A stretch of DNA of 64,000 bases from Spirochaetota bacterium (GCA_963664815.2 CAXXHB010000003.1:3136001-3200000), one strand, 5' to 3'. Positions 50,814 through 63,324 are shown, counted from the stretch's first letter. Translations and numbers: made by a program. The notes: generated by a model from the sequence alone, not told the origin.

Positions 50814-50899
50814 AACATCTTTTTCCAGTATAAAATTATATAGCAATGAAGTACAACGATAAGAACATTATCATAAAAAATATTCAATCTGCGGGATGC

Positions 50900-51218
50900 C
50901 GGCAGACTGTTGCTGAATATCGATTTAATCTCATCCTTTATATCACGGACAAATGATGCAATCGAAGTAAAATCTGGTGCTATCCGCTGATAATGCACTG
51001 AATACAATATTTTCACGGCGCGCGTCCATTATCTTCCTTGATGATACAATCCCGCAGGAATACGACAGCGGGATAATCTGCTTTGTAAAATCAACCGGAA
51101 TCATTATACCCTGCTCATATTAATACTACTTATACCGCGCTATGAATACCTCCCATAGCTTTATACACAGCATAACTATTATGAAATTACGATTAATTTA
51201 TAATTTTTCTACGGACAC
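50900..51218 (-). mobile_element. IS1182-like transposase remnant with one terminal end, abutting the vapBC cassette R'' box
   Basis: Degenerate MIPVDFTKQII..GIVSSRKI...RENIVFSALSAD / PDFTSIASFV; end GTGTCCGTAGAAAAA follows directly after GCAGATAAC. Confidence 0.6.
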
Positions 51219-51235
51219 GTTATCTGCAGTACCCG

Positions 51236-51649
51236 TTATTTTTTTATTTTTTTTGACCAGTTTTCTATTTTTAAACTTTTCACTTTTTCAAATTCTTTTG
51301 TATTATTTGTTACAAGAATGCCGTTTTTAGCTAAAACTGTTGCAGCAATCATATAATCATTTGGTCCTATACTTGTTCCTTTCAATTCCATTGCCGAACG
51401 AATTTTAGAATAAACAATTGAACAATCATCATCAAATGGTATTATTTCAAAAGGTTCGAGAAATCGATTGATATTAGTTAAATTTTTAGCTTTATGCTGA
51501 CTTTTTTCTGCGCCATAAAGAAGCCCGGTTTTTACAATTGAAGGAATTTTAATATTATTCGGATTTATATTTTGTATATTTTCCATTATAGAAGGATATA
51601 AGCCTTTAAGAAAGTACACACATATATTTGAATCAAGATAATAAATCAT
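51236..51649 (-). CDS. vapC: VapC-family PIN toxin
   Basis: YLDSNIC, IGPNDYMIAA, LVTNNTKEF; the conserved Glu position reads G (VKTGLLYG). Confidence 0.9.
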   Translation of the reverse strand: MIYYLDSNICVYFLKGLYPSIMENIQNINPNNIKIPSIVKTGLLYGAEKSQHKAKNLTNINRFLEPFEIIPFDDDCSIVYSKIRSAMELKGTSIGPNDYMIAATVLAKNGILVTNNTKEFEKVKSLKIENWSKKIKK

Positions 51650-51873
51650 AAGCTTTCTCTTTTCAAATCTTGCTCAAATGATAAATTCTTAATTTCAAAC
51701 GATTTATCTGTTATTGAACCAAATAAATCAAAATATCCCCGGGGATAATCTTCTTTTATTACTTTCTTTATATTGTTGCCTACCCATTTTGAGATTGAAA
51801 TACGTTCTTCAGCTGCGGCTTTTTCAATCTTAGCTAAGGTATCTTTGTCGATATATAATGATATTTGCGGCAT
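51646..51873 (-). CDS. RHH/CopG-type antitoxin
   Basis: MPQISLYID..SISKWV..LFGSI; ATGA overlap with vapC. Confidence 0.85.
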   Translation of the reverse strand: MPQISLYIDKDTLAKIEKAAAEERISISKWVGNNIKKVIKEDYPRGYFDLFGSITDKSFEIKNLSFEQDLKRESL

Positions 51874-51951
51874 ATAAAATCTCCTATAAGGAAAAAAATA
51901 AACGAACAGGTAAAAATCAAGTATATTTGCAAGTATATTTTAAGTGCAATG

Positions 51952-52078
51952 GCCGATAACACTGTTCGATGACTGCCCTATGCGCTTAGCTTGTCTAAGC
52001 AAGCCCGAACGACTGCCAGGGAGTTAAGCGCATAAGCTTTATATGAAGGCAATATGTCGTAAACATAAGTTTTTAAAT
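51952..52078 (-). repeat. attC-like site
   Basis: Imperfect long hairpin (TATGCGCTTA/TAAGCGCATA, TGCC/GGCA) ending in GTTATCGGC, which complements the GCAGATAAC after vapC. Confidence 0.65.
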
Positions 52079-52082
52079 GAAC

Positions 52083-52502
52083 CTATCTAAATCTTTTTTT
52101 ATTATGTCGATATGAAGACGGTAAATTCCCGGTCCACTTTTTAAATGCATGATAAAAGTTAGCTGTATCACTATACCCTAGTTTTTCAGCAATTTTTTCT
52201 ATAGTTAATTCTGTTGTAGTTAAAAAATCGATTGCCTTATTTTTAAGCACATTCGAAAGAATGGTCTGGTAAGTTATCCCTTCATCATAGAGATACCGCC
52301 TGAGTGTACGTGATGAAATATTCATATTACTGGCAATTTCGGCCATTGGTACTATTGCTTCTTCATGATAATATAATTCGTTATAAATTCTTTCAGTAAC
52401 AGTTTGGGATTCATTAAGTCTTAAATATAAAATGCGACATTCTTCTTCATATTTTTTCTTCATCAGAGGATTTGCTTTCGCCTGAAGGAATTCATAAACC
52501 AC
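52083..52502 (-). pseudogene. AraC-family regulator, C-terminal fragment
   Basis: SSRTLRR, LGYSDTANFYHAFKKWTG; N-terminal domain missing. Confidence 0.75.
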
Positions 52503-53301
52503 CTGTCATAATAATGGCACATGGACTGTGCACCCAGAAAAATTTTGGACTCATGGATTATACAGAACGATTTGTTAAAAAATGTATGGCCGTATTTCTT
52601 TTTGATTACCGCAGCTGGGGTAAGAGTGATGGTGTGAACCGCGTCAGATAGCTGAACCATCCCGCTATCTTGATGACTGGAGAGCGGCAATTGCACATGT
52701 TCGAGGCCTCCCCGAAGTTGATATAGACATGATCGCTCTTTGGGGCTCCTCTTTTTCGGGTGGCCATGTACTCTATATCGCCTCAGAGTACCATGGTATA
52801 AAAGCTGTTATAGCACAGGTACCTTTCATGAGCGGTTTTTCTTCAATATCAACCAAGAGTTTTTCGGATATAATAAAATCAACATTCTACGGGTGTTACG
52901 ATATTTTCAGGAGTGTTTTAAACCTCTCTCCTCACTATTCACCGGAAATAGGCAGACCCGGAACTTTTGCAGCAATGAATAGTGAAGAATCTTATGATGG
53001 CTATATGTCCATTGTCGGTGATGATAAAATATGGCAGAATAAAGTAGCTTCGCGTCTTTTTATAAAAATGTCGATGTACAGTCCATCTTCCAGAGCAAAA
53101 AAAAATTAAGGCAATGTTTTAATCTTGGCCGGGAAGAATGATTCACTAATTCCGGTTAAAGACGTGGAAAAATGTGCCATGAGGATATCTCATCGCCGAC
53201 TTGTTATAATGGACTGCAACCATTTTTAACCTTACACGGGGGATACTTTTAAAAATATCATTGATAAACATATTAAATTTCTGGAAGAATACCTGAAATG
53301 A
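52499..53301 (+). pseudogene. Alpha/beta hydrolase pseudogene
   Basis: PVIIMAHG...FDYRSWGKSDG...WGSSFSGGH; several frameshifts and a stop; 5' truncated. Confidence 0.8.
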
Positions 53302-53375
53302 ACACAGAGACTCATTGATGAGGTAATAGGAAATATTGAAAACTACTAAAAAATAGTAAATAATGGAGATAGATT

Positions 53376-53915
53376 ATGGCTGATAAACCAATAAAGACAT
53401 TCAGAGAAGACTGGTTTAGACGTTTTCAAAAGCATCTGTTTATTATAGTATTTATACCTGGAGGTTTATTTGTACAAAAATCACTAATCGGTCAAATTCA
53501 ATTTGAATATAATAGATCAGATTATTTCAGTATCATCTTCTGGAGTATACTTTTTCTGGGAATGTTTTGGCTTGAATATATATCTATTATCTATATGCAA
53601 ACAATAAAAACTGCAGCGGCAACAGTAGATGTATATGAGGATAGAATTGTAGGGCATGCACAGTATAAAAAAAACATATGGGTATTGAAATATGTTGATA
53701 TTAAAAAAATATATCCAAAACCTGGAGCTGTAAGACCTTATTTTGTCTTTGAAGATAAAAATGGAGACAAGTATAACATATCCATATTAATGGATTATCT
53801 CAAGGAATGCATGGAGTATATACAATATCAATCAGTCAATCTTGAAGTATACAAACTGGGGACTGTGCCTAAAAATGATATTGAATGGAAAAAATCAGAT
53901 GATCCAATTATATAG
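53376..53915 (+). CDS. Two-TM hypothetical protein, possible orphan immunity protein
   Basis: Intact ORF with GGAG SD, directly before an Rhs core remnant. Confidence 0.55.
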   Translation: MADKPIKTFREDWFRRFQKHLFIIVFIPGGLFVQKSLIGQIQFEYNRSDYFSIIFWSILFLGMFWLEYISIIYMQTIKTAAATVDVYEDRIVGHAQYKKNIWVLKYVDIKKIYPKPGAVRPYFVFEDKNGDKYNISILMDYLKECMEYIQYQSVNLEVYKLGTVPKNDIEWKKSDDPII

Positions 53916-55422
53916 CCCTACCACACCATAGACCATTCTGGACAAACCGGTTCCTTAAATGGAACCGTAGTATTCCGGTACATCCGGTTTATTCTCTTAT
54001 ACTTGAAAGAGTAATAAATAAACTGGAGCAATATTTTTAAAATAAAGCAATAGTTCCTTGAAAGCAGAAAATATTCATGACAGAACCGCGTCATGGAGGC
54101 GGAGGGTTTAGCCCGCAGTGCCGGAGCGATAACGGAGCCCGGAGCATCACGACTATAATCAACCGCACAGCTATCCATATAATGTATGACAAAAGGAGGA
54201 TTGCAGCGGTGCATAACTGGTCAGTGGATACAGGGAACCGGGAAGTTAATTCTTCGGCTGATCTGAAAACCAACAAAATAAGGTATCAGTACGGGAATCA
54301 CCTGGATAGCGCTTTACTGGAACTTGATAATTTGGGAAACATCATCAGTTACGAGGAGTATTTTCCTCATGGTGATACAAGCTTTATGGCTGGTAGTAAC
54401 CAGAAGGAAGTTAAGCTCAAAGAGTACAGATAAACAGGGAAAGAAAAGTATGATGCTACGGGATTGTACTACTTCAGGGCTCGGTATTATGCTTCATGGG
54501 TTGCTAGATGGCTATCTGCCGACCCACTGTTCAGGGAGAACCCAGCAGTTTATGAGGGACCAAAACCTAAAGATAAGGATGAGGCGAAGAAGCAGGAAGA
54601 GGATTACAGGCAGAAACTTTATTCTGAGGGATTGAACCTGTATGGGTATGTGAAGGGGAATCCGGTGAGGTTTAGTGATAAAGTGGGTAATCCTGCTTCT
54701 GCAGCTACTTTATCCGAAACTTTAGTAGAGTATGGAGCAGCTGCAGCAGAGGGTACAAAAAGTGCTGCGGAATATAATCCAGTATTATTAGCTTTAGCAA
54801 TAATATGTACACCATGGAATAATACAGACTATCCTGATATAGGAGGAATATGGAATGAACCATGGATAACTAATGAAGCTGAAGAAAAAATAGAAAGAGC
54901 AATCGTAATACAGGGATTAATTAGTGAATATGCAAAAGTAGAATATGAAAAAGAATTAAATGTATCAGTATATAATGCGCCACCAGCCAAAAAAGGTGCG
55001 TTTGAAGGTTTTTTAAAACAATTATTAAACATGGAGCAAGTATAATAGATTTAGGAATATCAGACCCTAAAAATAGATTTGGACAAGCTTTCTATGTCTC
55101 TGAAGATGAATATACAGCAAGATTGGAAACTGATAACTGGGTAACACCTGTTTTTAGGTTTACAATGAAAAATGCAAGGATATTGGATTTAACTGATCCA
55201 AAAACAGCTGAAATGTTTGGATATAAGGATGGAATGGAGCGCGAAGATGTTTTATCATTGTTAAAAGATAAAAATTTTACGGATATAACTCAAATTGATG
55301 CTATAAAGTATAAAAGTGTGAAAACTGGACGGATCAATTATGCTATAAAAAATCCAGCTATATTGGAATTTAAAGGTATAACAATGGGTGGTATAGATAT
55401 AAAAAATTGGATTAGACCATAA
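53916..55422 (+). pseudogene. Orphan Rhs/TcC-type core remnant with RES-like toxin tip
   Basis: RYQYGNHLDS.LLELD, SYEEYFP.G, YYFRARYY, GLNLYGYVKGNP; tip NRFGQAFYVSE..TARLE..ILDLTD..DAIKYKS; in-frame stop and frameshift. Confidence 0.8.
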
Positions 55423-55434
55423 AAGGAGGATAAA

Positions 55435-55872
55435 ATGTCAGGTGGGGATTTTGGAGTTGATATATACGTATTGGAATGTAGTAATTGCAAAACAAGATTT
55501 GAGAATGAATTTTCTAATAGTGACATGGCAACAAATTTTATTTTATTTTTAAAATGTATGACAGATGGAAAATTGTATTGTGTTGATACTATGTCAGATA
55601 ATGTTTTTAAAAAAATATATAATGAAATAAAAATGAAGTCTACTGAAGAAGTTATATTGGAAAGTAGAGCTTTTAAAGAAAAATTTGAAAGCATATGCAA
55701 ACCATGTAGCTGTGGAGGTAATTATATTTTTGATTATGCCTATGTCTGTCCAAAGTGTGGTAATGCAAGCAAACAAAACTTTGTATTAATAAATAAATAT
55801 TCATCTAGTATATATGTCCAGGATGTACAATACCAGGATGAATATAATATACCTGATGATATTGAGGATTAG
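55435..55872 (+). CDS. Cys-rich putative immunity protein
   Basis: AGGAGG SD, 12 nt after the toxin stop; CxxC, CxC, CPxC motifs. Confidence 0.65.
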   Translation: MSGGDFGVDIYVLECSNCKTRFENEFSNSDMATNFILFLKCMTDGKLYCVDTMSDNVFKKIYNEIKMKSTEEVILESRAFKEKFESICKPCSCGGNYIFDYAYVCPKCGNASKQNFVLINKYSSSIYVQDVQYQDEYNIPDDIED

Positions 55873-55888
55873 GACTGCCACTGCCACA

Positions 55889-57237
55889 ATGCCACACCCT
55901 AGACCATTCTGGACAAACCGGTTCCTTAAATGGAACCGCATATTCCGGGTACATCCGGTTTATGCTCTGACACCTCATCTCTGGAAGGAATGGAATGAGG
56001 CGCTGACACTGAAAGTGAGGTGAACTGGAACTACAGGGATAACATAAGCTCTGCTGTTCTTTTAAAACGAGATAGCAACATAAACGACGCAGAGTACTAC
56101 GTGTATGACGCGGCAGGTCAGCGCATCAGGAAAGTACGGGAGACGCTCACCAACAGCAACAATAACAGTGTTGAAATTGAAGAGAAGATATATTTAAGTG
56201 CTGTTGAAATAAAGAAGATACGCACTGTTCAGGGGAATAACAGCACTGATATATTGAACAGGTCAACTCTCCATGTTATGGATGACAAGAGGAGAATTGC
56301 GACTGTCCATAACTGGTCACAGGATAGCAATAACCGTGAGGTGAATTCATCCAGCGATCTCAACACAAACAGGATAAGATACCAGTATGGAAATCATCTT
56401 GATTCAGCTTCGCTGGAACTGGACAGTATAGGGCAGATCATCTCCTATGAGGAATATGACGCCACAGGATGTGGCTAATGCAAAGCGCGACAGGATGTCA
56501 AAAAAGCGCTTTGCCTTTCCGTATGGCGACACTTCTTTCATAGCAGGCACTAACCAGAAAGAGGTGAAACTCAAGGAGTACAGGTACACAGTGAAGGAGA
56601 AGGACGATGCCACAGGATTATACTATTACGGGGCACGCTACTACGCTTCATGGCTTGCTAGATGGCTATCTGCCGACCCACTGTTCAGGGAGAACCCAGC
56701 AGTTTATGAGGGACCAAAACCTAAAGATAAGGATGAGGCGAAGAAGCAGGAAGAGGATTACAGGCAGAAACTTTATTCTGAGGGATTGAACCTGTATGGG
56801 TATGTGAAGGGGAATCCGGTAAACCATAATGATCCGACGGGTATGGAAGAAAAGTATAATCCAAGTTGTCATCAAAGTTATATCCCTAGTGTCGGAGAAG
56901 CTGTAGAGTCACGACTTAAAAGAGAAAACAATGAGACAGTCAAAGCAGTAAAAAACTTTTCTTTTTGAAAGTAAGATTAATGCATTATCATCTGATAATC
57001 CACTACCGCTACCAATGCCAAAGGTATTAATAGGAAATGATTATTACTATTTATTGCGTTATATTGACGCTGAAAATAGAGGGTTAAATCCACCGGATTA
57101 TTATCTTGATTATGGTAATAAATATATGAATAAATTTAAATATGAAACTGGGCCTAGCTTATCAACTAGCGGACAAGAATGTTGCCGTTATACTTTATAC
57201 TATTTACAAGCAAATATGGAAAATATTCTATTATTAA
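55889..57237 (+). pseudogene. Second orphan Rhs core remnant with truncated C-terminal tip
   Basis: YYVYDAAGQRIRK, SYEEY, ATGLYYYGARYY, NPVNHNDPTG; 58-bp insertion; cut by the IS91-like end. Confidence 0.8.
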
Positions 57238-57476
57238 ACAGTCTATCAGATAACTGTAGAAATAATTATTTTACGGGATTATTATTTTTTCCGGTAAAAT
57301 CACCGGATTTTTACTGTATGTTATTTCAAAGATCGGGAGAAAATGGGATTCGAATTCCTATGACTGTTCTGAGTATTTTCAAAGCATGCACTGTCCGATG
57401 TCAGTGATTTCGTCCAACAAAAGTCTTAACATAGCTGCTGTCTGAAGATTGAAATTATCTGTTCAATGTTTTTATA
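57238..57476 (+). repeat. IS91-like element downstream end plus hairpin arm, copy 1
   Basis: Clearly homologous to 63039-63252, which follows the IS91-like transposase fragment. Confidence 0.8.
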
Positions 57477-57538
57477 CCGCTAATAAAGATTAGCGGTTTT
57501 TTTGGGGCAGCTACGTTAAGACTTCTATAAGTTAGATG
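57412..57538 (-). repeat. attC-like hairpin
   Basis: Minus strand CATCTAAC..AAGTCTTAACGTAGCTGC...GCAGCTATGTTAAGACTT..GTTGGAC; fits RYYYAAC/GTTRRRY. Confidence 0.75.
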
Positions 57539-57553
57539 ATGGTTGTGAAACTT

Positions 57554-58531
57554 TTAATAAGAATCAATATGTCTAATTTTATCAATATACCATTTATTTT
57601 CTATTTTTGTTAAATACACATTACATGAGACAAACTCTTTTACTATCTGTTTTTGTGTAAAAGTTTTATCAACATCAATATTAAATCCTTCTTTCGATTT
57701 AGTTTTCAACAGCCAAGCTAATTTTGATGAATTTGTTGGCGAAATTAGCTGAAATAAAATCAAATTATCAAATACATCAACATCATAGTTATGTTCTTTT
57801 AGTTCGTTTTTAAAGGAATCAAATATTTTTATAATATTACTTAAATCTTTGACTTTTTTCTTATAAATTTGATCAATACAATCAAATAATGGAGCATCAG
57901 TTTTATCAGTATAATTTACAAATATTTCTGCAGATGCTGCATCAACTTTGGTTTTACGAATACTTAAATCTACAATTGAATCTGTATAGATATAACCTTC
58001 TTTAAAAGAAGATAAATTATTATTCCATCGTTGTTTTCTAAAATCAGAGCTAAGAAGTTTAAATGCATTCTCATAATTTTTATGTGATAAATGAGTATAA
58101 AAATATTTTACACAAGCATATGCAGAACCATGCTCATCCATTAAGTTCTTAATAAATTTTTTCACTCTATCACGCAGATTGTCTAATGATTCAGGTGTGA
58201 AATCATAAAAAACTTGTCTTAATCCAGTAACATCAAATGGAATTTTATCATCATTATTATATCTTGTAACAATTACATTATTAAAAGACAATGCATGAGC
58301 ATAACCTAATTCATAAAAAACATTGGGATTATTAGAACTAATATCTGCAATAATCATATCAGCGCTTTTTATATTATTTAAAACATCTTCCATAATTTGA
58401 CCGGGTTGTGCAATTTCATCAACTCTTATACATTTAACATCTAATTCATCACATATACTTTTGTATACATTGTTATACACATCTTCATACTTTGAAAATG
58501 GCATAATAACAAAACAATTTTTTTTATCCAT
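57554..58531 (-). CDS. Cassette gene: TIR-like/nucleoside 2-deoxyribosyltransferase-like domain fused to a C-terminal NTF2-like domain
   Basis: CFVIMPF...RVDE...ADIS..NPNVFYELGYAHA; flanked by complementary ends GTTGATATGATAGTTGTGAA / TTCACAACCATCATCTAAC. Confidence 0.75.
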   Translation of the reverse strand: MDKKNCFVIMPFSKYEDVYNNVYKSICDELDVKCIRVDEIAQPGQIMEDVLNNIKSADMIIADISSNNPNVFYELGYAHALSFNNVIVTRYNNDDKIPFDVTGLRQVFYDFTPESLDNLRDRVKKFIKNLMDEHGSAYACVKYFYTHLSHKNYENAFKLLSSDFRKQRWNNNLSSFKEGYIYTDSIVDLSIRKTKVDAASAEIFVNYTDKTDAPLFDCIDQIYKKKVKDLSNIIKIFDSFKNELKEHNYDVDVFDNLILFQLISPTNSSKLAWLLKTKSKEGFNIDVDKTFTQKQIVKEFVSCNVYLTKIENKWYIDKIRHIDSY

Positions 58532-58617
58532 TTAAAACTCCATAATATAAATTATTTTTAAATTCACAACTATCATATCAACGTCTTGGCTATACGACGT
58601 TGCGCGGTCTTTTGCGC

Positions 58618-60451
58618 GTCGAGTGGCGCGAAGGAACTTCCCCTCCGCGCTCTCACGGAACCAGACGTGAATCTCTCAATTCATCCGGCTCTTATTGTTC
58701 AGCCTTTACAGTAAAGAAGACCCCAATGCGTGAAAAGTTTCGGCTCTTTCATTGCTATGCGCTCTATCCAGTGCCTTGCTCTGCGCTTATGACCCCTTAA
58801 CCTTTTATATTTCTTCATTGCCCATTTTGTCAGTATTAAATCAAACAGCCTTAGTGTCGGATACATCGCCGACCGGTAAAAGGCATAGTAATAATTTATC
58901 CATCCTCTGATTCTGGCATTGAACATGCGGGATATCTCCTCAAGTGTCTGGCTGCTCCGAAGATGAACCTTCCACACTTTCATAGTTTCCCTTATATTTT
59001 TCATAGCCTTATCACTGGCGGCAGGACTGAAATTGACAAAGTATTTCCCATGTTTTGTTTTCGACATTCTGGCCTTAAAAGTAAATCCCAGAAAATCAAA
59101 ATTTACTACAGGATATCTCTGCTTTCTCTTGTCATCCCTGCAATAAACAATCTTTGTCTTCTCCGGATGAAGTTCAAGTTTACACTCATTCATCCTTTCT
59201 TCAAGTGCATGCTTCAACTGTATAGCCTGTTCTTCAGTGCTGCAATGACAGATACAGTCGTCTGCGTACCTTTCAAAAGGTATTGACGGATAGTTTCTCA
59301 CCATCCATGCGTCAAATGCGTAATGAAGATAAAGATTCGCAAGCAGCGGGCTTATTACTCCCCCCTGTGGCGTCCCTTTTGTTCTCTCCTCAAGACTGCC
59401 ATCCGGCATTTTCACCGGAGCTTTCAGCCAGCGTTCAATATACAGTATAACCCATCTGCTTTTTGTATGCTTACACACCGCCTTCATCATCAGATCATGA
59501 TCTATTGTATCAAAGAATCCTTTGATATCAAGGTCGATTACCCAGTCATATTTCCAGCAGTGTCTTCGGGCTCTTTCAACTGCATCTTTAGCCGAACGCC
59601 CTGGCCGATAGCCGTATGAATTTTGATGAAATACCTTTTCAAGTTCAGGCTCAAGCATACGCTTGACCACCGTCTGGGCTATCCTGTCAGATACTGCAGG
59701 TATTCCCAGTGATCTTTTCTTCCCGTCACTTTTCGGAATTTCAACACGTAATACCGGCGGAGGCAAATAACTTCCGGATGACATACGGTTCCAGATTTTA
59801 AACAGGTTATTTTTTAAATCTGATTCAAAATCTTTTAGCTTTACTCCGTCTGCTCCGGATGCTCCTCTGTTCGCTTTTACCTGTTTGTAACTATCCCATA
59901 CTTCCTGTCTGGATATTTGAAACGGCTTTGCCTTATCCAATCAATTCCTCCCGTTACCGGTTGATTAATCTCTAAAGCTGAACAATGTGCCCCCTTTGCT
60001 CCATCTCCATTACAGAGACTTCTTCACTACTACGGGACACTCCGCCCCTGTGCTTTGCCTCGGTACTCTCATCCTTGCGGGGCCACCGCTTGAAATTCTC
60101 CCTTATCATCAAAGCGACTTACTTCTCACATTGAACATAAAAGCCAGCTGTAAAGTCACACCATCTTTATGCCGGAAGCCGTCCGGACAGTAAACAGGTC
60201 TCCTCCGGACTTATCCCGGAATCCACATTACACCCCGGTTTTGACTTCAACTGTAGCCTCTTTCGACACCTCAACGATGATTCACTTTCGTTTGTCTCCT
60301 TACAACACACCTGACGTGTTTATCACGCCTTTTCCTTAACGCTCACCACAGTAGCTCTTTACCAATGCAGCTTAAGGTGGTTTGAAGCCTGTACCTGTAT
60401 ACCGGCTCCGAAGGGCCCTCCTTCATCTTTTACACTCCTTCCGTGACACAC
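58618..60451 (-). mobile_element. Full-length group II intron (bacterial class D, RmInt1-like), 1834 bp
   Basis: 5' GTGTG; domain V GAGCCGGATGAATTGAGAGATTCACGTCTGGTTC; domain VI ending ACTCGAC; EBS1 AATGTGG complements IBS1 CCACATT. Confidence 0.92.
58699..59940 (-). CDS. ltrA: Group II intron reverse transcriptase/maturase, no endonuclease domain
   Basis: KPFQI..V..YK.VKANRGA.G.DG, GTPQGGVISPLLANL, YADD, RGWINYY; TTG start with GGAGG SD. Confidence 0.95.
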   Translation of the reverse strand: MDKAKPFQISRQEVWDSYKQVKANRGASGADGVKLKDFESDLKNNLFKIWNRMSSGSYLPPPVLRVEIPKSDGKKRSLGIPAVSDRIAQTVVKRMLEPELEKVFHQNSYGYRPGRSAKDAVERARRHCWKYDWVIDLDIKGFFDTIDHDLMMKAVCKHTKSRWVILYIERWLKAPVKMPDGSLEERTKGTPQGGVISPLLANLYLHYAFDAWMVRNYPSIPFERYADDCICHCSTEEQAIQLKHALEERMNECKLELHPEKTKIVYCRDDKRKQRYPVVNFDFLGFTFKARMSKTKHGKYFVNFSPAASDKAMKNIRETMKVWKVHLRSSQTLEEISRMFNARIRGWINYYYAFYRSAMYPTLRLFDLILTKWAMKKYKRLRGHKRRARHWIERIAMKEPKLFTHWGLLYCKG

Positions 60452-60542
60452 AATGTGGCAAAGCCCAAGTGAGGTACTCTGAACTCTGCGGGTAAGCTTT
60501 GTTGTATGCCGTAAGCGAATTTTGGATTTAATTTATTTTTAT

Positions 60543-61868
60543 TCAAAAAGCAAAAAATTCCGTAATGCATGTATCCTCAAATTTAATCCCAGGGTAAACA
60601 TCTTTTATTGTTATACGAATTTTTGTAATTTCGTAATCGCAATCAAAATCTTCCGGGGCAATAAGAATACTTGTCACATTTATCTCTTTATTGACACCTT
60701 CAAAATCATCTTCGCCCCAATTCAGCAATGCAAAATATTTCGTTTTCAAGTCATCTATGGTTATAGTTTTACTAAATGAAAAAGAGCTTCCATCTGCTCC
60801 TTTCTTGTTACCCTGAATATCACATTGTACTTTTTTAATTCTAGAATTATTTGTAAACAATTTGCTGGATCTCATAAAACCATTCGCAATTGCAATATTT
60901 TTTACACCCTCTTTAAAATCGACTTCAATCCACTCTCCAATCCCATTTCCATCTGCACCTTCCGCCCATGCCGTTTTGAATGTCCCGTCGATAAGATTTT
61001 TAACCGAATAAGGCCCTTTAAGACTGCTCGAAGCGGATATGTTTTTTACTAACAAAGATGTTTTATTTTTCAACACCTGACTGCGGTATTTTTTATAATA
61101 TTTTTCAAGATCATATGCAATTTCAAGATCTCTTAATTTTGAAAAATTTACCTTTTCTATGATTACGCTCTGATTATAATTTTGTTTTTGAAAGCCTTTA
61201 ATCCCATTAATTTTAAAATCAATTTTTTTCATATCTAATACAAAGGTATCTATAACGATTTCTAATTTATCAACAACACCTTTACCCCAGCCAGCTGCAG
61301 GTTTAAAATTATATACGAAAGTTCTTATCCTGTCGCTCCCTTCATCACCGTTATAACTTGATCTTGCTAAATAATTAATTTGAATAATGTTTATCCCTTT
61401 GTTTAGTTTTATCTTTGACAAATACCACTTAATTTCATCATCTTCATCAGATTCAAAAAAATCTTCTCTTTTAATTTTATTTATTTTTTGAGTCAGTGTA
61501 ACATCAGAATTATTTATTGTCATCTTAAAATATTTAATAGAATCATTATCACTATTTTTAAAAGACTGGAAATCTACAAGCCCTACATGCTTGTTATAAA
61601 ATGGAAATCCGAAATCTACAGTTTTATTATCATCTCTACAGTTCAGTTCATATATTAACTGAATATTGACATAATCATCAATAGGTCTGATGAATAGCTT
61701 TTCAGATAAAAGATCAACATTTTCAAATTTTTTTAATTGGACATTACCTGTTGATACAAGTGTTGAACCCTCAATTGGGCCTCCGTTTGATTGAAGTGGA
61801 AATGAGTAGAATATGCTTACTGAAAAAAATAATAAACCAAGAATAGATTCTCTAACTATTTTCATCAC
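60543..61868 (-). CDS. Cassette gene: secreted protein with DUF4424-like N-terminus and discoidin/glycan-binding-like C-terminal domain
   Basis: Signal peptide; SASSSL...NLIDG..KTAWAEG..GNGIGEWI...DTCITE; flanks TAAGCGAATT / AATTCGCTTA are complementary. Confidence 0.7.
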   Translation of the reverse strand: MMKIVRESILGLLFFSVSIFYSFPLQSNGGPIEGSTLVSTGNVQLKKFENVDLLSEKLFIRPIDDYVNIQLIYELNCRDDNKTVDFGFPFYNKHVGLVDFQSFKNSDNDSIKYFKMTINNSDVTLTQKINKIKREDFFESDEDDEIKWYLSKIKLNKGINIIQINYLARSSYNGDEGSDRIRTFVYNFKPAAGWGKGVVDKLEIVIDTFVLDMKKIDFKINGIKGFQKQNYNQSVIIEKVNFSKLRDLEIAYDLEKYYKKYRSQVLKNKTSLLVKNISASSSLKGPYSVKNLIDGTFKTAWAEGADGNGIGEWIEVDFKEGVKNIAIANGFMRSSKLFTNNSRIKKVQCDIQGNKKGADGSSFSFSKTITIDDLKTKYFALLNWGEDDFEGVNKEINVTSILIAPEDFDCDYEITKIRITIKDVYPGIKFEDTCITEFFAF

Positions 61869-61966
61869 AAACCTCTTTGAGTTTTATTATCAAAAATCTG
61901 CTATGAATTAACAGTATTTTGTATAAGAAAATATATAGTTAATAAAAAAAGTTCAATTCGCTTATA

Positions 61967-62365
61967 GTCTGGTAGGTCAGGAAGCTCGCACCTCCTTTCC
62001 CCCATAAGAACCGTACGTGGAAGTTTTTACCACAGGCACTTCCTCCGGTCGCCTTCACACGGCTCAAGCCGTCTAAAGCTGATTTTACAACCAGCCGCTG
62101 TTATCTGTTTGTATTCCCATTTTTCTATAGTAGAAATAATCAGAATCTACTTTTAGAAATGGGTTCCTGTCAAGACTTATCATTCTGTGCCGTACAATTT
62201 TAATGTGTCCCGCAGTAATGAGAATCTCCTCATCAGAGCAGAAAGTTTAAGTACCGGTTTTTAAGCCATAAAGAATTTTTCATCGGGTGTCTGAATCTGC
62301 CCCATATCCATAGAGCCTGAAAAAGAACAGTATCGAGTTTTAAAGGCTACCTTTGACATTCATGA
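61967..62365 (-). mobile_element. 3' remnant of a second, different group II intron
   Basis: Degenerate domain X (WIWGRFRHP...IKIVRHRMISLDRNPFL); domain V GAGCCGTGTGAAGG..CACGTACGGTTC; domain VI ending CCTACCAGAC. Confidence 0.8.
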
Positions 62366-62939
62366 AAATGCTTTTATTCCACCTCGGCAAAGAACTTAAA
62401 AACGGTTCTTTAAAGACACCTGACGGCATTGAAGATACAGAAAAGCTTTTTAATCAGCTTGCGTATATTCCATAGGTTGTAAACTCCCAGCCTCCCGGCA
62501 AAGGTAAAAAGAAACCGGTAAACATAGTCCGCTATCTTTCGAGATACGTTGCTAAAAGTGCAGTCAGTGATAAACGGATACAGAAAGCGGAGAATGGAAA
62601 TGTTTACATCCGCTATTACAATAGAAAAAGGAAGCAGAGTAAAATGGAGGTTGTTACAGAGATTCAATTTATGAAACGGCTGGTACTGCATATTCTTCCT
62701 AAAGGATTTAAAAAGTCCGGTTCTTCGGGTTTATGGCAAACCATAACAGGGCAAACAATCTTGCCCTTTGCCGGATGTTTCTTGGTCAGCCCCTGGCGGA
62801 GCAGGATGAGCGGAGCAAAGAGCTTCTTGAGGATACAGCTTTCCTGTTCTGGAAATATTTCAGGATTGATATAACTCTCTGCAGGGAGTGCGAAAAGGGA
62901 CACATTCATTATATCCATGGCCTGTCGACTTACGGTTAG
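62366..62939 (+). pseudogene. IS91-family (Y2) transposase C-terminal fragment
   Basis: YLSRYVAKSAVSDKRI, FMKRLVLHILPKGFKK, C-terminal CxxC; internal TAG and frameshift. Confidence 0.85.
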
Positions 62940-63038
62940 CTGTTATAAAGAAGTATATCCGCACAGATTTAAAAAACTGTTTTATAGAGAGGATAAGTAT
63001 GTCCGGAGCATTTGAGATTTTTCATAAAATCGCCATTC

Positions 63039-63252
63039 ACAGTCTATCAGATAACTGTAGAAATAATTATTTTACGGAATTATTATTTTTTCCGGTAAGA
63101 TCATCGGATTTTTACTGTATGTTATTTCAAAGATCGGGAGAAAACGGTATTCAAATTCCTAAATATACTGTTCGATCCCAGTGGTTTCGTCCAACAGAGT
63201 CTTAACATAGCTGCTACCTGAAGATTAAAATTATCTGTTTAATGTTTTTATA
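63039..63252 (+). repeat. IS91-like element downstream end plus hairpin arm, copy 2
   Basis: Homologous to 57238-57476; contains GTTTCGTCCAAC. Confidence 0.8.
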
Positions 63253-63324
63253 AGTTTTTCAAAATATCCCCCATGCTCTTTTTCCACACCGAAGCGCATG
63301 GACGCGCGAAGGTTATTTAAAAAA

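What the first reader, a model, noticed from the sequence alone, without database searches (positions are those of the whole stretch)
50900..63320. Four different mobile elements converge on attC-like junctions
Seen: an IS1182-like end begins exactly after an R'' AAC (51218). IS91-like ends abut R'-like GTTGGAC (57412, 63189). A class D intron sits mid-attC (60451), and a second intron ends at an R' position (61967). None of these four junctions falls inside a cassette ORF. Known: IS1111-attC elements and IIC-attC introns use attC sites as safe havens. Inference: a wider guild of attC parasites that progressively immobilises the array.
Basis: partly seen in the sequence, partly recalled or inferred. 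Interest (0 to 1): 0.7.

Follow-up and report, generated by a model that had tools for sequence, protein, structure and literature searches.

The report
Mobile elements clustered at integron-like recombination sites

Summary
Largely real, with corrections. Window 50.9-63.3 kb is the distal part of one of 6-7 co-oriented cassette arrays in this genome. Each array is headed by a conserved unit: recombinase gene, then an attI-like junction ending in GTTAYRYG. The recombinase resembles integron integrases but lacks their specific extra domain.

- **IS1182-family end (51218):** confirmed. In 12 of 13 left ends from 6 genomes, each with a different flank, the element starts right after an R''-type ...AAC.
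- **Intron (58618-60451):** confirmed mid-attC. All 3 copies in 2 genomes sit at the same nucleotide of one attC family. Orientation is the same as the cassettes, unlike IIC-attC introns. Class D is untested.
- **IS91-like ends (57412, 63189):** the junctions exist. However, the 150-nt attC-like palindrome beyond them travels with the IS91 element, also in another genus. Its outer end abuts GTTR in 26 of 27 parsed copies, which fits both the IS91 tetranucleotide rule and the complement of an R'' box.
- **Second intron (61967):** a genuine 3' remnant fused to the IS91 fragment, forming one composite repeat (about 20 copies). No R' box is recognisable there.

Progressive immobilisation is untested.

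The parts
50860..51218 (-). 5' remnant of an IS1182-family element. It holds the left terminal repeat (plus 51204-51218), a leader of about 115 nt, and a frameshifted N-terminal transposase fragment.
   Evidence: weak DUF772, E 0.084; 50-68% aa identity to the 490-aa G006 protein that scores NF033551 IS1182 at 278 against a cut-off of 270
51219..51226 (-). R''-type box CAGATAAC of the RHH/PIN cassette. The IS1182-family end starts immediately after its AAC.
   Evidence: 12 of 13 left ends follow AAC
51236..51873 (-). Toxin-antitoxin cassette (PIN 51236-51649, RHH 51646-51873)
51956..52050 (-). Degenerate S-family attC following the AraC-like fragment (52083-52502). Its R' is GTTATCG at plus 51954-51960.
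   Evidence: partial nhmmer hit; covariance model 28.9 bits, E 2e-5, full length; weak fold, z -1.5
53918..57237 (+). Block of duplicated Rhs C-terminal tip and putative immunity modules on the opposite strand. It interrupts the array and is not a cassette series.
   Evidence: (repeat families D1, D2, D4)
57238..57411 (+). 3' untranslated end of an IS91-family element ('IS91-B'), ending ...GTGATTTC
   Evidence: homologous to the end of an intact IS91-B-like element in another genus and to the end of the intact IS91-X of this genome
57412..57530 (+). 150-nt family 'A': an attC-like palindromic module (GTCCAAC ... long stem with an internal terminator-like hairpin ... CTTCTATAA). It is always linked to the IS91-B end and always antisense to the cassettes.
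   Evidence: 34 nhmmer hits; z -5.7 / -7.0
57531..57538 (+). GTTAGATG, the complement of the R'' box of the TIR-like cassette. It lies 15 nt from that gene's stop codon and is the outer junction of the IS91-B unit.
   Evidence: (26 of 27 parsed A ends are followed by GTTR)
57554..58531 (-). Cassette gene with weak nucleoside deoxyribosyltransferase / TIR-like matches
58574..58617 (-). 3' half of an S-family attC (L' arm, with R' GTTGATA at plus 58576-58582)
58618..60451 (-). Complete group II intron. IEP at 58699-59940 (RT plus maturase, no endonuclease domain); domain V/VI at 58618-58693; D1-D4 match at 60309-60424.
   Evidence: (TIGR04416 at 436.8 bits)
60452..60509 (-). 5' half of the same S-family attC (R'' ATACAAC at plus 60501-60507, L'' arm), following the 441-aa gene
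60543..61868 (-). Cassette gene (NADase_transloc / F5_F8 type C domain protein)
61967..62355 (-). 'L': the 3'-terminal approximately 389 nt of a second group II intron (IEP C-terminus, then domain V with a 28-nt insert, then domain VI). It is the left part of the composite repeat.
   Evidence: (40 bits, equal to the gathering score)
62356..63002 (+). 'T': frameshifted C-terminal half of the IS91-B Y2 transposase gene
   Evidence: PF04986, E 2e-17
63003..63252 (+). IS91-B 3' end, then GTCCAAC (63189-63195), then the first 85 positions of module A. The remainder is replaced, ending at GTTATTT 9 nt from the methylase gene's stop codon.

Best explanation
The region is the distal part of a sedentary, integron-like chromosomal cassette array. 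The platform reads recombinase gene, then an attI-like site ending in GTTAYRYG, then cassettes in the same direction. For this array the head remnant lies outside the window at contig position 3,212.0-3,212.7 kb and has no recombinase gene.

Several mobile elements that act on single-stranded or hairpin DNA have accumulated at the recombination sites. Each gets there by its own specificity.

(a) An IS1182-family element inserts directly after the AAC of the R'' box.

(b) IS91-family rolling-circle elements insert 5' of a GTTN/GTCC tetranucleotide. In these arrays that tetranucleotide is the R' box, or on the other strand the complement of the R'' box. The IS91-B element of the window therefore lies upside-down with its origin end against the R'' box of the preceding cassette. 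It carries its own attC-like palindrome.

(c) A group II intron retrohomes by sequence into the conserved central loop of one attC family, in the sense orientation.

(d) The 'second intron' is a 3' remnant that became fused to a 5'-truncated IS91-B. The fused unit (L-T-R-A, and deletion forms L-R-A) then multiplied to about 20 copies. I infer this happened by rolling-circle mobilisation in trans, with the intron end (GTCT plus hairpins) acting as a surrogate termination end.

Shown: the junction sequences, their recurrence with different flanks, the platform anatomy, and attC stem covariation.

Inferred: the transposition mechanisms, the order of events, and any effect on cassette mobility.
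For: **Platform**
- 6-7 arrays share a head region.
- In 5 arrays the conserved sequence ends at ...ACAA|GTTAYRYG, about 70 nt after the recombinase stop codon, and then diverges. The same design is seen in two congeners.
- Genes in the arrays are co-oriented.
- The recombinase's best solved relative is VchIntI4 (156 bits).

**attC sites**
- The S family (13 nhmmer hits) has R''/L''/L'/R' architecture. 9 L-box pairs are predicted, 2 of them with compensatory changes (CG x5 / UA x4; GC x5 / AU x2 / CG x1).
- The bottom strand folds as R box, asymmetric bulge, then L box (z -3.3).

**IS1182-family element**
- 13 left ends in 6 genomes and 2 genera were found with a pattern that excluded the flank. 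12 of 13 are preceded by ...AAC, and all flanks differ.
- One right end in G006 is followed by AAC plus an S-type attC body.

**Shared junction**
- Two paralogous cassettes end ...TTCATATAAC. They are then followed in one case by the IS91-B module and in the other by the IS1182 end, at the same nucleotide.

**IS91-family elements**
- The intact IS91 (287-aa integrase plus 418-aa transposase; NF033538 at 429 bits) sits exactly at the R' of an S attC...GTAAGCAAGGC|GTTGAAC...IS...|GTTAGACG.
- 26 of 27 parsed A ends abut GTTR (22 GTTA, 4 GTTG), with mostly distinct flanks.
- The family rule of a GTTC/GTCC/CTTG tetranucleotide next to oriIS, with subterminal palindromes, comes from passages of PMC13181058.
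- Module A is conserved next to an intact IS91-B-like transposase gene in another genus.
- The R-end variant correlates with the A variant.

**Intron**
- 3 of 3 copies (this genome and 2 in G006) lie after ...GCCACATT of an S-type attC. One G006 copy also has the intact 3' half of the attC.
Against: - The recombinase fails two defining tests of integron integrases: TIGR02249 scores 220.7 against a cut-off of 265, and the region matching IntI4 residues 182-240 is only 17 aa long. It is 36% identical to the integrase carried by the intact IS91. The platform may therefore not be an integron in the strict sense.
- For the IS91-B composite, the rest of the interrupted attC (L''...L'-R') is missing beside all 18 L ends examined. 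A simple insertion into an attC does not explain this.
- No truly empty A site exists: 'solo' A copies keep about 20 nt of the IS91-B end.
- Two generic attC scans of my own did not separate the arrays from background (1.3 against 1.0 hits per kb; 0.29 against 0.17 per kb). Many cassette junctions thus have no attC that I could recognise.
- Nearly all IS1182-family copies are short left-end remnants; only 1 of 12 loci examined by tblastn is full-length. Target duplications and right junctions therefore rest on a single case.
- Relatives are kin, so their copies are not fully independent.
Confidence: 0.6

Rival explanations
1. The arrays are built mainly by IS91-type rolling-circle transposition rather than by an integron integrase. 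On this view the palindromic modules (A, X58, perhaps S) are IS91 origin and termination ends. Each 'cassette' is a one-ended transposition unit [GTTA...gene...L-R-A]. The head recombinase is an IS91-type accessory integrase.
For: - A and X58 have the same frame...GT|CCAAC - palindrome - 5 nt - GTTAYRYG. Each follows an IS91 3' end in the same relative orientation.
- In two relatives the IS91 contigs end right after palindrome + GTT. In a third, the left contig end is TGTTGAAC followed by a palindrome.
- A travels with the IS91-B-like transposase gene in another genus.
- Every period of the array begins with GTTAYRYG and ends with A. This also explains why no attC remainder lies beside L.
- The head recombinase is 36% identical to the IS91 integrase and lacks the IntI domain.
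Against: - S-type sites follow ordinary genes with no IS91 sequence beside them, and show attC-type R/L box architecture with covariation.
- X58 occurs without any IS91-X sequence in at least 6 copies.
- The attI-like junction beside the recombinase gene is conserved across species.
- Only one intact IS91 transposase gene is present in the genome.
Confidence: 0.2
2. The recurrences are copies of a few ancestral junctions spread by segmental duplication and homologous recombination among arrays. They are not site-specific insertions, and the resemblance to R boxes is incidental.
For: - Some units are plainly duplicated with their flanks: A plus flank at 3,687,123 and 3,692,530 are 100% identical over 460 nt, and two L copies share one flank.
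- The end of R and module A are co-inherited.
Against: - The 13 IS1182-family left ends all have different flanks and come from 6 genomes.
- Most of the A right flanks listed differ from one another beyond the 8-nt motif; one pair is identical.
- The intron occupies the same nucleotide in attCs at unlinked places in two species.
- Two unrelated elements abut the same nucleotide of paralogous cassettes.
Confidence: 0.08

Closest known systems
IS1111-attC group of insertion sequences (IS110 family; recalled from memory and named in the finding; no text read here beyond term counts in the listing)
   Same: An insertion sequence whose copies sit at a fixed position and orientation in integron attC sites.
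   Different: The element here belongs to the IS1182 family: a DDE transposase, with NF033551 met by the full-length G006 homologue. It joins directly after the R'' AAC. Almost all copies are left-end remnants.
Group IIC-attC introns (passages of PMC7923331)
   Same: A group II intron without an endonuclease domain that is specific for attC sites. The nearest solved reverse transcriptases are class C (7UIM 173 bits, GsI-IIC 166 bits, against LtrA 117 bits).
   Different: IIC-attC introns insert in the bottom strand at R'' (TTGT/T), opposite to cassette transcription. This one lies in the top strand, in the same direction as the cassettes, in the central loop between L'' and L'. Its class was not determined. 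Same-orientation cases (a IIB intron just downstream of an attC, and an unusual IIC intron in Enterobacter cloacae) are mentioned in the same paper's passages.
IS91 / ISCR rolling-circle elements (passages of PMC13181058)
   Same: A Y2 HUH transposase, subterminal palindromes, a GTTC/GTCC/CTTG-type tetranucleotide next to the origin end, and nested or one-ended derivatives.
   Different: These elements carry a tyrosine recombinase gene. Their origin-side palindrome has attC architecture (...AAC - stem - GTT...). Their boundaries coincide with cassette boundaries (G|TT). The window's copies are truncated and fused to a group II intron remnant.
Sedentary chromosomal integrons and CALINs, including the 'inverted integrase' type (orientation recalled from memory)
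   Same: The recombinase gene is followed by an attI-like junction ending in GTTRRRY and by long co-oriented cassette arrays with a homogeneous attC family. Several arrays have lost the recombinase gene.
   Different: The recombinase lacks the IntI-specific domain and falls below the TIGR02249 cut-off.

Membership tests
Integron (IntI + attI + attC cassettes) | Integrase reaching the curated integron-integrase model score | tested here: not met
   TIGR02249 scores 220.7 bits against a cut-off of 265. NF040815 (XerA / integron integrase) scores 235.3 against 220. No match over the cut-off anywhere in the genome.
Integron (IntI + attI + attC cassettes) | IntI-specific additional domain between the catalytic patches | tested here: not met
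   The alignment to VchIntI4 (2A3V) is split. IntI4 residues 182-240 correspond to only 17 residues (262-278) of the 357-aa protein.
Integron (IntI + attI + attC cassettes) | attI-type junction next to the integrase gene: conserved up to GTTRRRY, variable beyond | tested here: met
   5 arrays aligned. The same design is seen in G006 and G007.
Integron (IntI + attC cassettes) | attC sites with R''-L''...L'-R' boxes that pair | tested here: met
   S family: 10 sequences, 9 L-box pairs, 2 with compensatory changes. The bottom-strand fold has an R box and an L box. Not shown for most other cassette junctions.
IS1182 family | IS1182-type DDE transposase | tested here: inconclusive
   The window fragment alone gives only a weak DUF772 match (E 0.084). 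It is 50-68% identical over two 34-aa pieces to the G006 protein, which meets NF033551 (278 against 270).
IS1111-attC group | IS110-family (DEDD) transposase | tested here: not met
   The homologous full-length protein is IS1182 family. The element works like an attC-specific IS but is not a member.
Group IIC-attC introns | Inserted in the attC bottom strand at R'', opposite to the cassettes | tested here: not met
   Same orientation as the cassette genes. The insertion point ...GCCACATT|GCGCAAAAG lies between L'' and L'.
   Only family-level matches are available (RF01999, RF00029, TIGR04416). Among solved RTs the closest are class C. No class D reference was on hand.
IS91 family | Y2 HUH transposase | tested here: met
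   Intact copy: NF033538 at 429.5 bits. Window fragment: PF04986, E 2e-17.
IS91 family | Conserved tetranucleotide of the GTTC/GTCC/CTTG type adjacent to the origin end | tested here: met
   Inner junction ...GGTTTC|GTCC AAC. Outer junction ...CTTCTATAA|GTTR in 26 of 27 parsed copies. Which of the two is the true end remains open.

The most novel reading that the evidence does not exclude
IS91-family elements that carry a tyrosine recombinase are hybrids of a rolling-circle transposon and an integron cassette. Their origin end is an attC-like palindrome and both their boundaries are the G|TT core. They could therefore move either by the HUH transposase or as cassettes of an integron-like platform whose integrase lacks the IntI-specific domain. 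On this reading the arrays here are built and remodelled by both enzymes acting on one shared core motif.
Probability: 0.2. Interest if true: 0.85.

Novelty: new variant of a known kind. Interest (0 to 1): 0.66.

Why it matters
attC sites are known targets for only two specialised element lineages: IS1111-attC elements and IIC-attC introns. This locus and its relatives add three things:
- an IS1182-family element with a sharply defined R''-AAC junction;
- a sense-oriented intron that homes to the attC centre;
- IS91-family elements whose tetranucleotide rule and origin palindrome coincide with attC cores.

All of this sits in a cassette platform whose recombinase lacks the hallmark IntI domain.

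If confirmed, it would widen the set of elements that exploit folded recombination sites. It would also give a concrete link between HUH rolling-circle transposons and cassette arrays, and offer a non-canonical integron-like system for testing what the IntI domain is really needed for.

Tried and rejected
- **Generic attC scans.** Two scripts of my own searched for AAC - stem - GTT. Neither separated the arrays from background, so I dropped them.
- **Covariance model of the S family.** It recovered only S-type sites: 7 hits in 228 kb, of which 2 are in the window. It gives no map of other attC types.
- **IntI search of the genome.** No match over the cut-off.
- **Right ends of the IS1182-family element in relatives.** 7 extended loci were fetched and scanned together with L116. 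None of the 7 had a plausible right end; only L116 did. Most copies are truncated.
- **Literature on IS1182 and attC.** A search for 'IS1182' + 'attC' returned 13 papers. The 10 listed, seen as titles and abstract openings only, concern other matters. 'attC/IS91/group II intron/IS1111' and 'IS91 family/tyrosine recombinase' were also searched. None of the listed titles describes IS1182-family or IS91-family attC targeting, but only listings were seen and no supplements were read.
- **Sequencing runs.** 5 runs from 2 studies hold the stretch, and no RNA holder is listed.
- **Earlier findings of this scan.** There were none for this genome or this sequence. A word search gave one note from another genome.
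- **Idea that the whole L-R-A unit is an ORF-less group II intron.** Rejected. No D1-D4 match was found in it, and R is the 3' end of an IS91 transposase gene in another genus.
- **First impression that the recombinase-like hits next to the repeat clusters were all IS91 integrases.** Revised. The array heads carry a distinct, longer recombinase with an attI-like junction.

Full report
**What is in the region**

ORF listing and Pfam scans show mostly minus-strand genes from 49 kb to the window's end:
- an RHH/PIN pair (51236-51873);
- an AraC-like fragment (52083-52502);
- a gene with weak TIR-like matches (57554-58531);
- a 441-aa NADase_transloc-domain protein (60543-61868);
- a DNA methylase (63325 onward).

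A plus-strand block of duplicated Rhs C-terminal tips (53.9-57.2 kb) interrupts them (repeat families D1, D2, D4).

Rfam finds one complete group II intron on the minus strand: D1-D4 at 60309-60424, domain V/VI at 58618-58693, and the IEP at 58699-59940. In E-value mode it finds a second domain V/VI match at 61967-62067, scoring 40 bits, equal to the gathering score, with a 28-nt insert in domain V.

**Genome context**

The window is contig 3 positions 3,136,001-3,200,000 of a 5.2-Mb assembly. BLAST and nhmmer against the laid genome show that the repeats of the region occur almost only in 6-7 clusters. These lie on contig 3 at 1.36-1.40, 1.96-1.97, 2.52-2.57, 3.19-3.21, 3.58-3.59 and 3.68-3.70 Mb, with one more on contig 2.

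Each cluster has the same head region at one end. Only the 1.97-Mb cluster keeps an intact 357-aa tyrosine recombinase gene. In three others most of the gene is deleted. The window's own array has a head remnant at 3,212,006-3,212,716, outside the window, with no recombinase gene.

In five arrays the head is conserved up to ...GGATAG(T/A)ACAA|GTTAYRYG, about 70 nt after the recombinase stop codon, and diverges right after. Orthologues in two congeners (57-60% identity) show the same design, with GTTATCTG and GTTATCGG. Cassette genes run in the same direction as the recombinase gene.

This is the anatomy of an integron with the integrase pointing into the array. However, the protein fails two defining tests:
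- TIGR02249 scores 220.7 bits against a cut-off of 265.
- In the alignment to VchIntI4, its best solved relative at 156 bits, IntI4 residues 182-240 correspond to only 17 residues.

In one search, the closest relatives in public genomes match over about 800-810 nt for query residues 85-356. These are Bacteroidota and Ignavibacteriota MAGs at 35-50% identity. More distant hits, largely proteobacterial, match over 900-945 nt. That difference is what an extra domain of about 40 aa in those would give. I therefore call the platform integron-like.

**The recombination sites**

One family ('S', about 105 nt; 13 nhmmer hits) is a textbook attC:
CATATAAC - AAA - GCTTACCCG ... CGGGTAAGC - AAAAC - GTTATATG.
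- Ten aligned members give 9 L-box pairs, two of them with compensatory changes.
- The bottom strand folds into an R box, an asymmetric bulge and an L box (z -3.3).

Two further palindromic families share the frame ...CCAAC - stem - 5 nt - GTTAYRYG:
- 'X58' (about 62 nt, 14 sites), always in cassette orientation within the arrays.
- 'A' (150 nt, 34 nhmmer hits including partial ones), always in the opposite orientation.

My own generic attC scans did not discriminate. A covariance model of S found only S-type sites. Many junctions therefore remain without a recognised attC.

**Junction 1: IS1182-family element (51218)**

On the minus strand, the PIN stop codon is followed by CAGATAAC. Then GTGTCCGTAGAAAAA... 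begins. This is the left end, a leader of about 115 nt, and a frameshifted N-terminal fragment of a transposase.

A full-length homologue in a congener meets the IS1182 model (NF033551, 278 against a cut-off of 270). The window fragment is 50-68% identical to it over two short pieces.

A pattern taken from inside the element end, excluding the flank, found 12 further places in 122 genomes of the order. Together with the window that makes 13 left ends in 6 genomes of 2 genera. All 13 have different upstream flanks, and 12 of 13 are immediately preceded by ...AAC. Examples are GCGCACAAC, GCATATAAC and CAGCTAAC; the exception is CACATC.

AAC has frequency 0.016 per position in this genome. Several flanks carry the S-type extension GCGCTT(A/T)CAGCATATAAC. 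The one right end seen is followed by AAC AAAGGCTAAACGCGGCGCTCGGAGTACCTCGCTTGGCC, which is an S-type attC body.

This junction is confirmed and generalised. Almost all copies are left-end remnants, with 1 of 12 loci full-length by tblastn.

**Junction 3: the complete intron (60451)**

Uninterrupted S sites elsewhere in the genome read ...GCCACAT(T/C)|GCG(G)CAAAAG... at three places. In the window the intron (5' GTGTG ... CTCGAC 3') lies exactly there, at 60451..58618 on the minus strand. That is between L'' and L', in the same direction as the cassette genes.

A congener holds two 80%-identical full-length copies. Both follow ...GCCACATT of an S-type attC, and one also has the intact 3' half (...GTAAGCAAGAC GTTGTGCG). 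So 3 of 3 copies in 2 genomes share one position.

This differs from IIC-attC introns, which lie in the bottom strand at R'' and opposite to the cassettes (passages of PMC7923331). The same passages mention rare same-orientation cases. The IEP has no endonuclease domain, and its nearest solved relatives are class C enzymes. Class D could not be tested.

**Junctions 2 and 4: one composite**

The segment 61967-63252 is a single repeat made of four parts:
- L: the intron 3' remnant on the minus strand.
- T: the C-terminal half of an IS91 Y2 transposase gene on the plus strand (PF04986).
- R: the transposase gene's 3' untranslated end.
- A: the 150-nt palindromic module.

Four copies have all four parts. 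Others lack T (L-R-A), or carry a piece of a second IS91 lineage instead of L. The copy at 57238-57530 has only R-A.

L is homologous over its full 389 nt to the end of an intact intron in another genus, which has a 484-aa IEP and a domain V/VI match at 65 bits. L is therefore a genuine intron remnant. In all 18 copies examined its end is followed directly by unique sequence, usually with a ribosome-binding site and a start codon. No R' box is present. The first base is T in 14 of 18 copies.

At the other side, similarity to IS91 3' ends stops at ...GGTTTC|GTCCAAC. The same frame is seen in two other places:
- the genome's only intact IS91 (integrase plus transposase)...GGTTCT|GTCCAAC followed by X58;
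- an intact IS91-B-like element of another genus...GTGGTTTC|GTCCAAC followed by an A-like module that includes the internal terminator hairpin.

X58 occurs without IS91 sequence, and one R end on contig 2 is followed by a different palindrome.

But A is not an independent host site:
- 'Solo' A copies keep about 20 nt of R.
- R variants correlate with A variants.
- A accompanies the transposase gene across genera.

The outer end of the unit...CTTCTATAA, is followed by GTTA (22 copies) or GTTG (4 copies) in 26 of 27 parsed copies, against a background of 0.0066. The flanks are mostly distinct. The motif lies a few nucleotides from the stop codon of the preceding minus-strand gene (15 nt at 57538/57554 in the window, 9 nt at the 63.3-kb copy). 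It is the complement of that cassette's R'' box.

Two paralogous cassettes show this directly. Both end ...TTCATATAAC. One is followed by A and the other by the IS1182-family end, at the same nucleotide.

The intact IS91 sits the other way round, exactly at the R' of an S attC...GTAAGCAAGGC|GTTGAAC...|GTTAGACG.

According to passages of PMC13181058, IS91-family elements insert next to GTTC, GTCC or CTTG and have subterminal palindromes at the origin end. Both candidate ends here (GTCC and GTTA) fit that rule. Both coincide with RYYYAAC or GTTRRRY.

**What remains unexplained**

- Beside L there is no remainder of the interrupted attC.
- I cannot say whether the true IS91 end is the inner or the outer junction.

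My favoured account is as follows. An upside-down IS91-B lay at an R'' box and an intron lay near the R' of the same site. A deletion fused the two. The fused unit then spread by rolling-circle mobilisation, using the intron end (GTCT plus hairpins) as a termination end. This is inference.

The main rival is that the arrays are largely IS91 transposition-unit arrays, and that the palindromes are IS91 ends rather than attCs. I give it about 0.2. S-site architecture, IS-free X58 copies and the conserved attI-like junction speak against it. The missing IntI domain and the 36% identity between the head recombinase and the IS91 integrase speak for it.

**Verdict**

The pattern is real for three element types and goes beyond chance. 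The fourth 'element' is part of the third's composite. The attC-like site next to the IS91 end belongs to the IS91 unit. Loss of array mobility is plausible, since recombinase genes are deleted in most arrays, but it is untested.

It agrees with this reading but is not independent evidence.

Read-level tests could not be made.

Noticed in passing
window 53918-57237 (+): Two to three tandem orphan Rhs C-terminal tip modules, each with downstream small ORFs (likely immunity genes). The duplications are 71-88% identical (repeat families D1, D2, D4). The block lies on the strand opposite to the cassettes and is cut at 57238 by the IS91-B end.
   Followed up: partly
cassette 5' leaders, e.g. contig 3 near 3,206,000, 1,972,000 and 2,559,200; also 3' of a cassette near 3,206,930: A recurrent short hairpin with the loop motif CATCCGTG (GGCCATCCGTGGCC, CCGGGCATCCGTGCCCGG, AATACATCCGTGTATT). 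It lies 40-60 nt after R' boxes, just upstream of ribosome-binding sites. Its function is unknown.
   Followed up: no
array heads, e.g. contig 3 1,361,060-1,362,090 and 3,700,114-3,700,560: Tandem repeats of about 140 bp upstream of the recombinase gene in every array head.
   Followed up: no
L011:10281-11977 (contig 3 1,970,281-1,971,977): In the only array with an intact recombinase gene, the first unit after the attI-like junction encodes a ParA-like ATPase and a 223-aa protein, followed by an S attC.
   Followed up: no
L140 (G024 contig 134, 2808-3451): A derivative of the window's intron in another genus that appears to lack the IEP. It matches intron positions 69-517 and 1748-1834 only, and lies in a GC-rich flank unlike an S attC.
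   Followed up: no
window 52463-53260: Fragments of an alpha/beta-hydrolase-like gene in several frames next to a truncated AraC-type regulator. They look like decayed cassette content.
   Followed up: no
G006 contig 1, 4.327-4.428 Mb: In the complete congener genome, the recombinase gene (4,426,936-4,428,000, minus strand) lies about 90-100 kb from the IS1182-family copies and one intron copy (4.327-4.337 Mb), on the side expected for one very long array.
   Followed up: no
window 61967-62067 (-): Domain V of the intron remnant carries a 28-nt insertion in its loop in all copies of this genome. The intact homologue in another genus has a canonical domain V (65 bits).
   Followed up: partly
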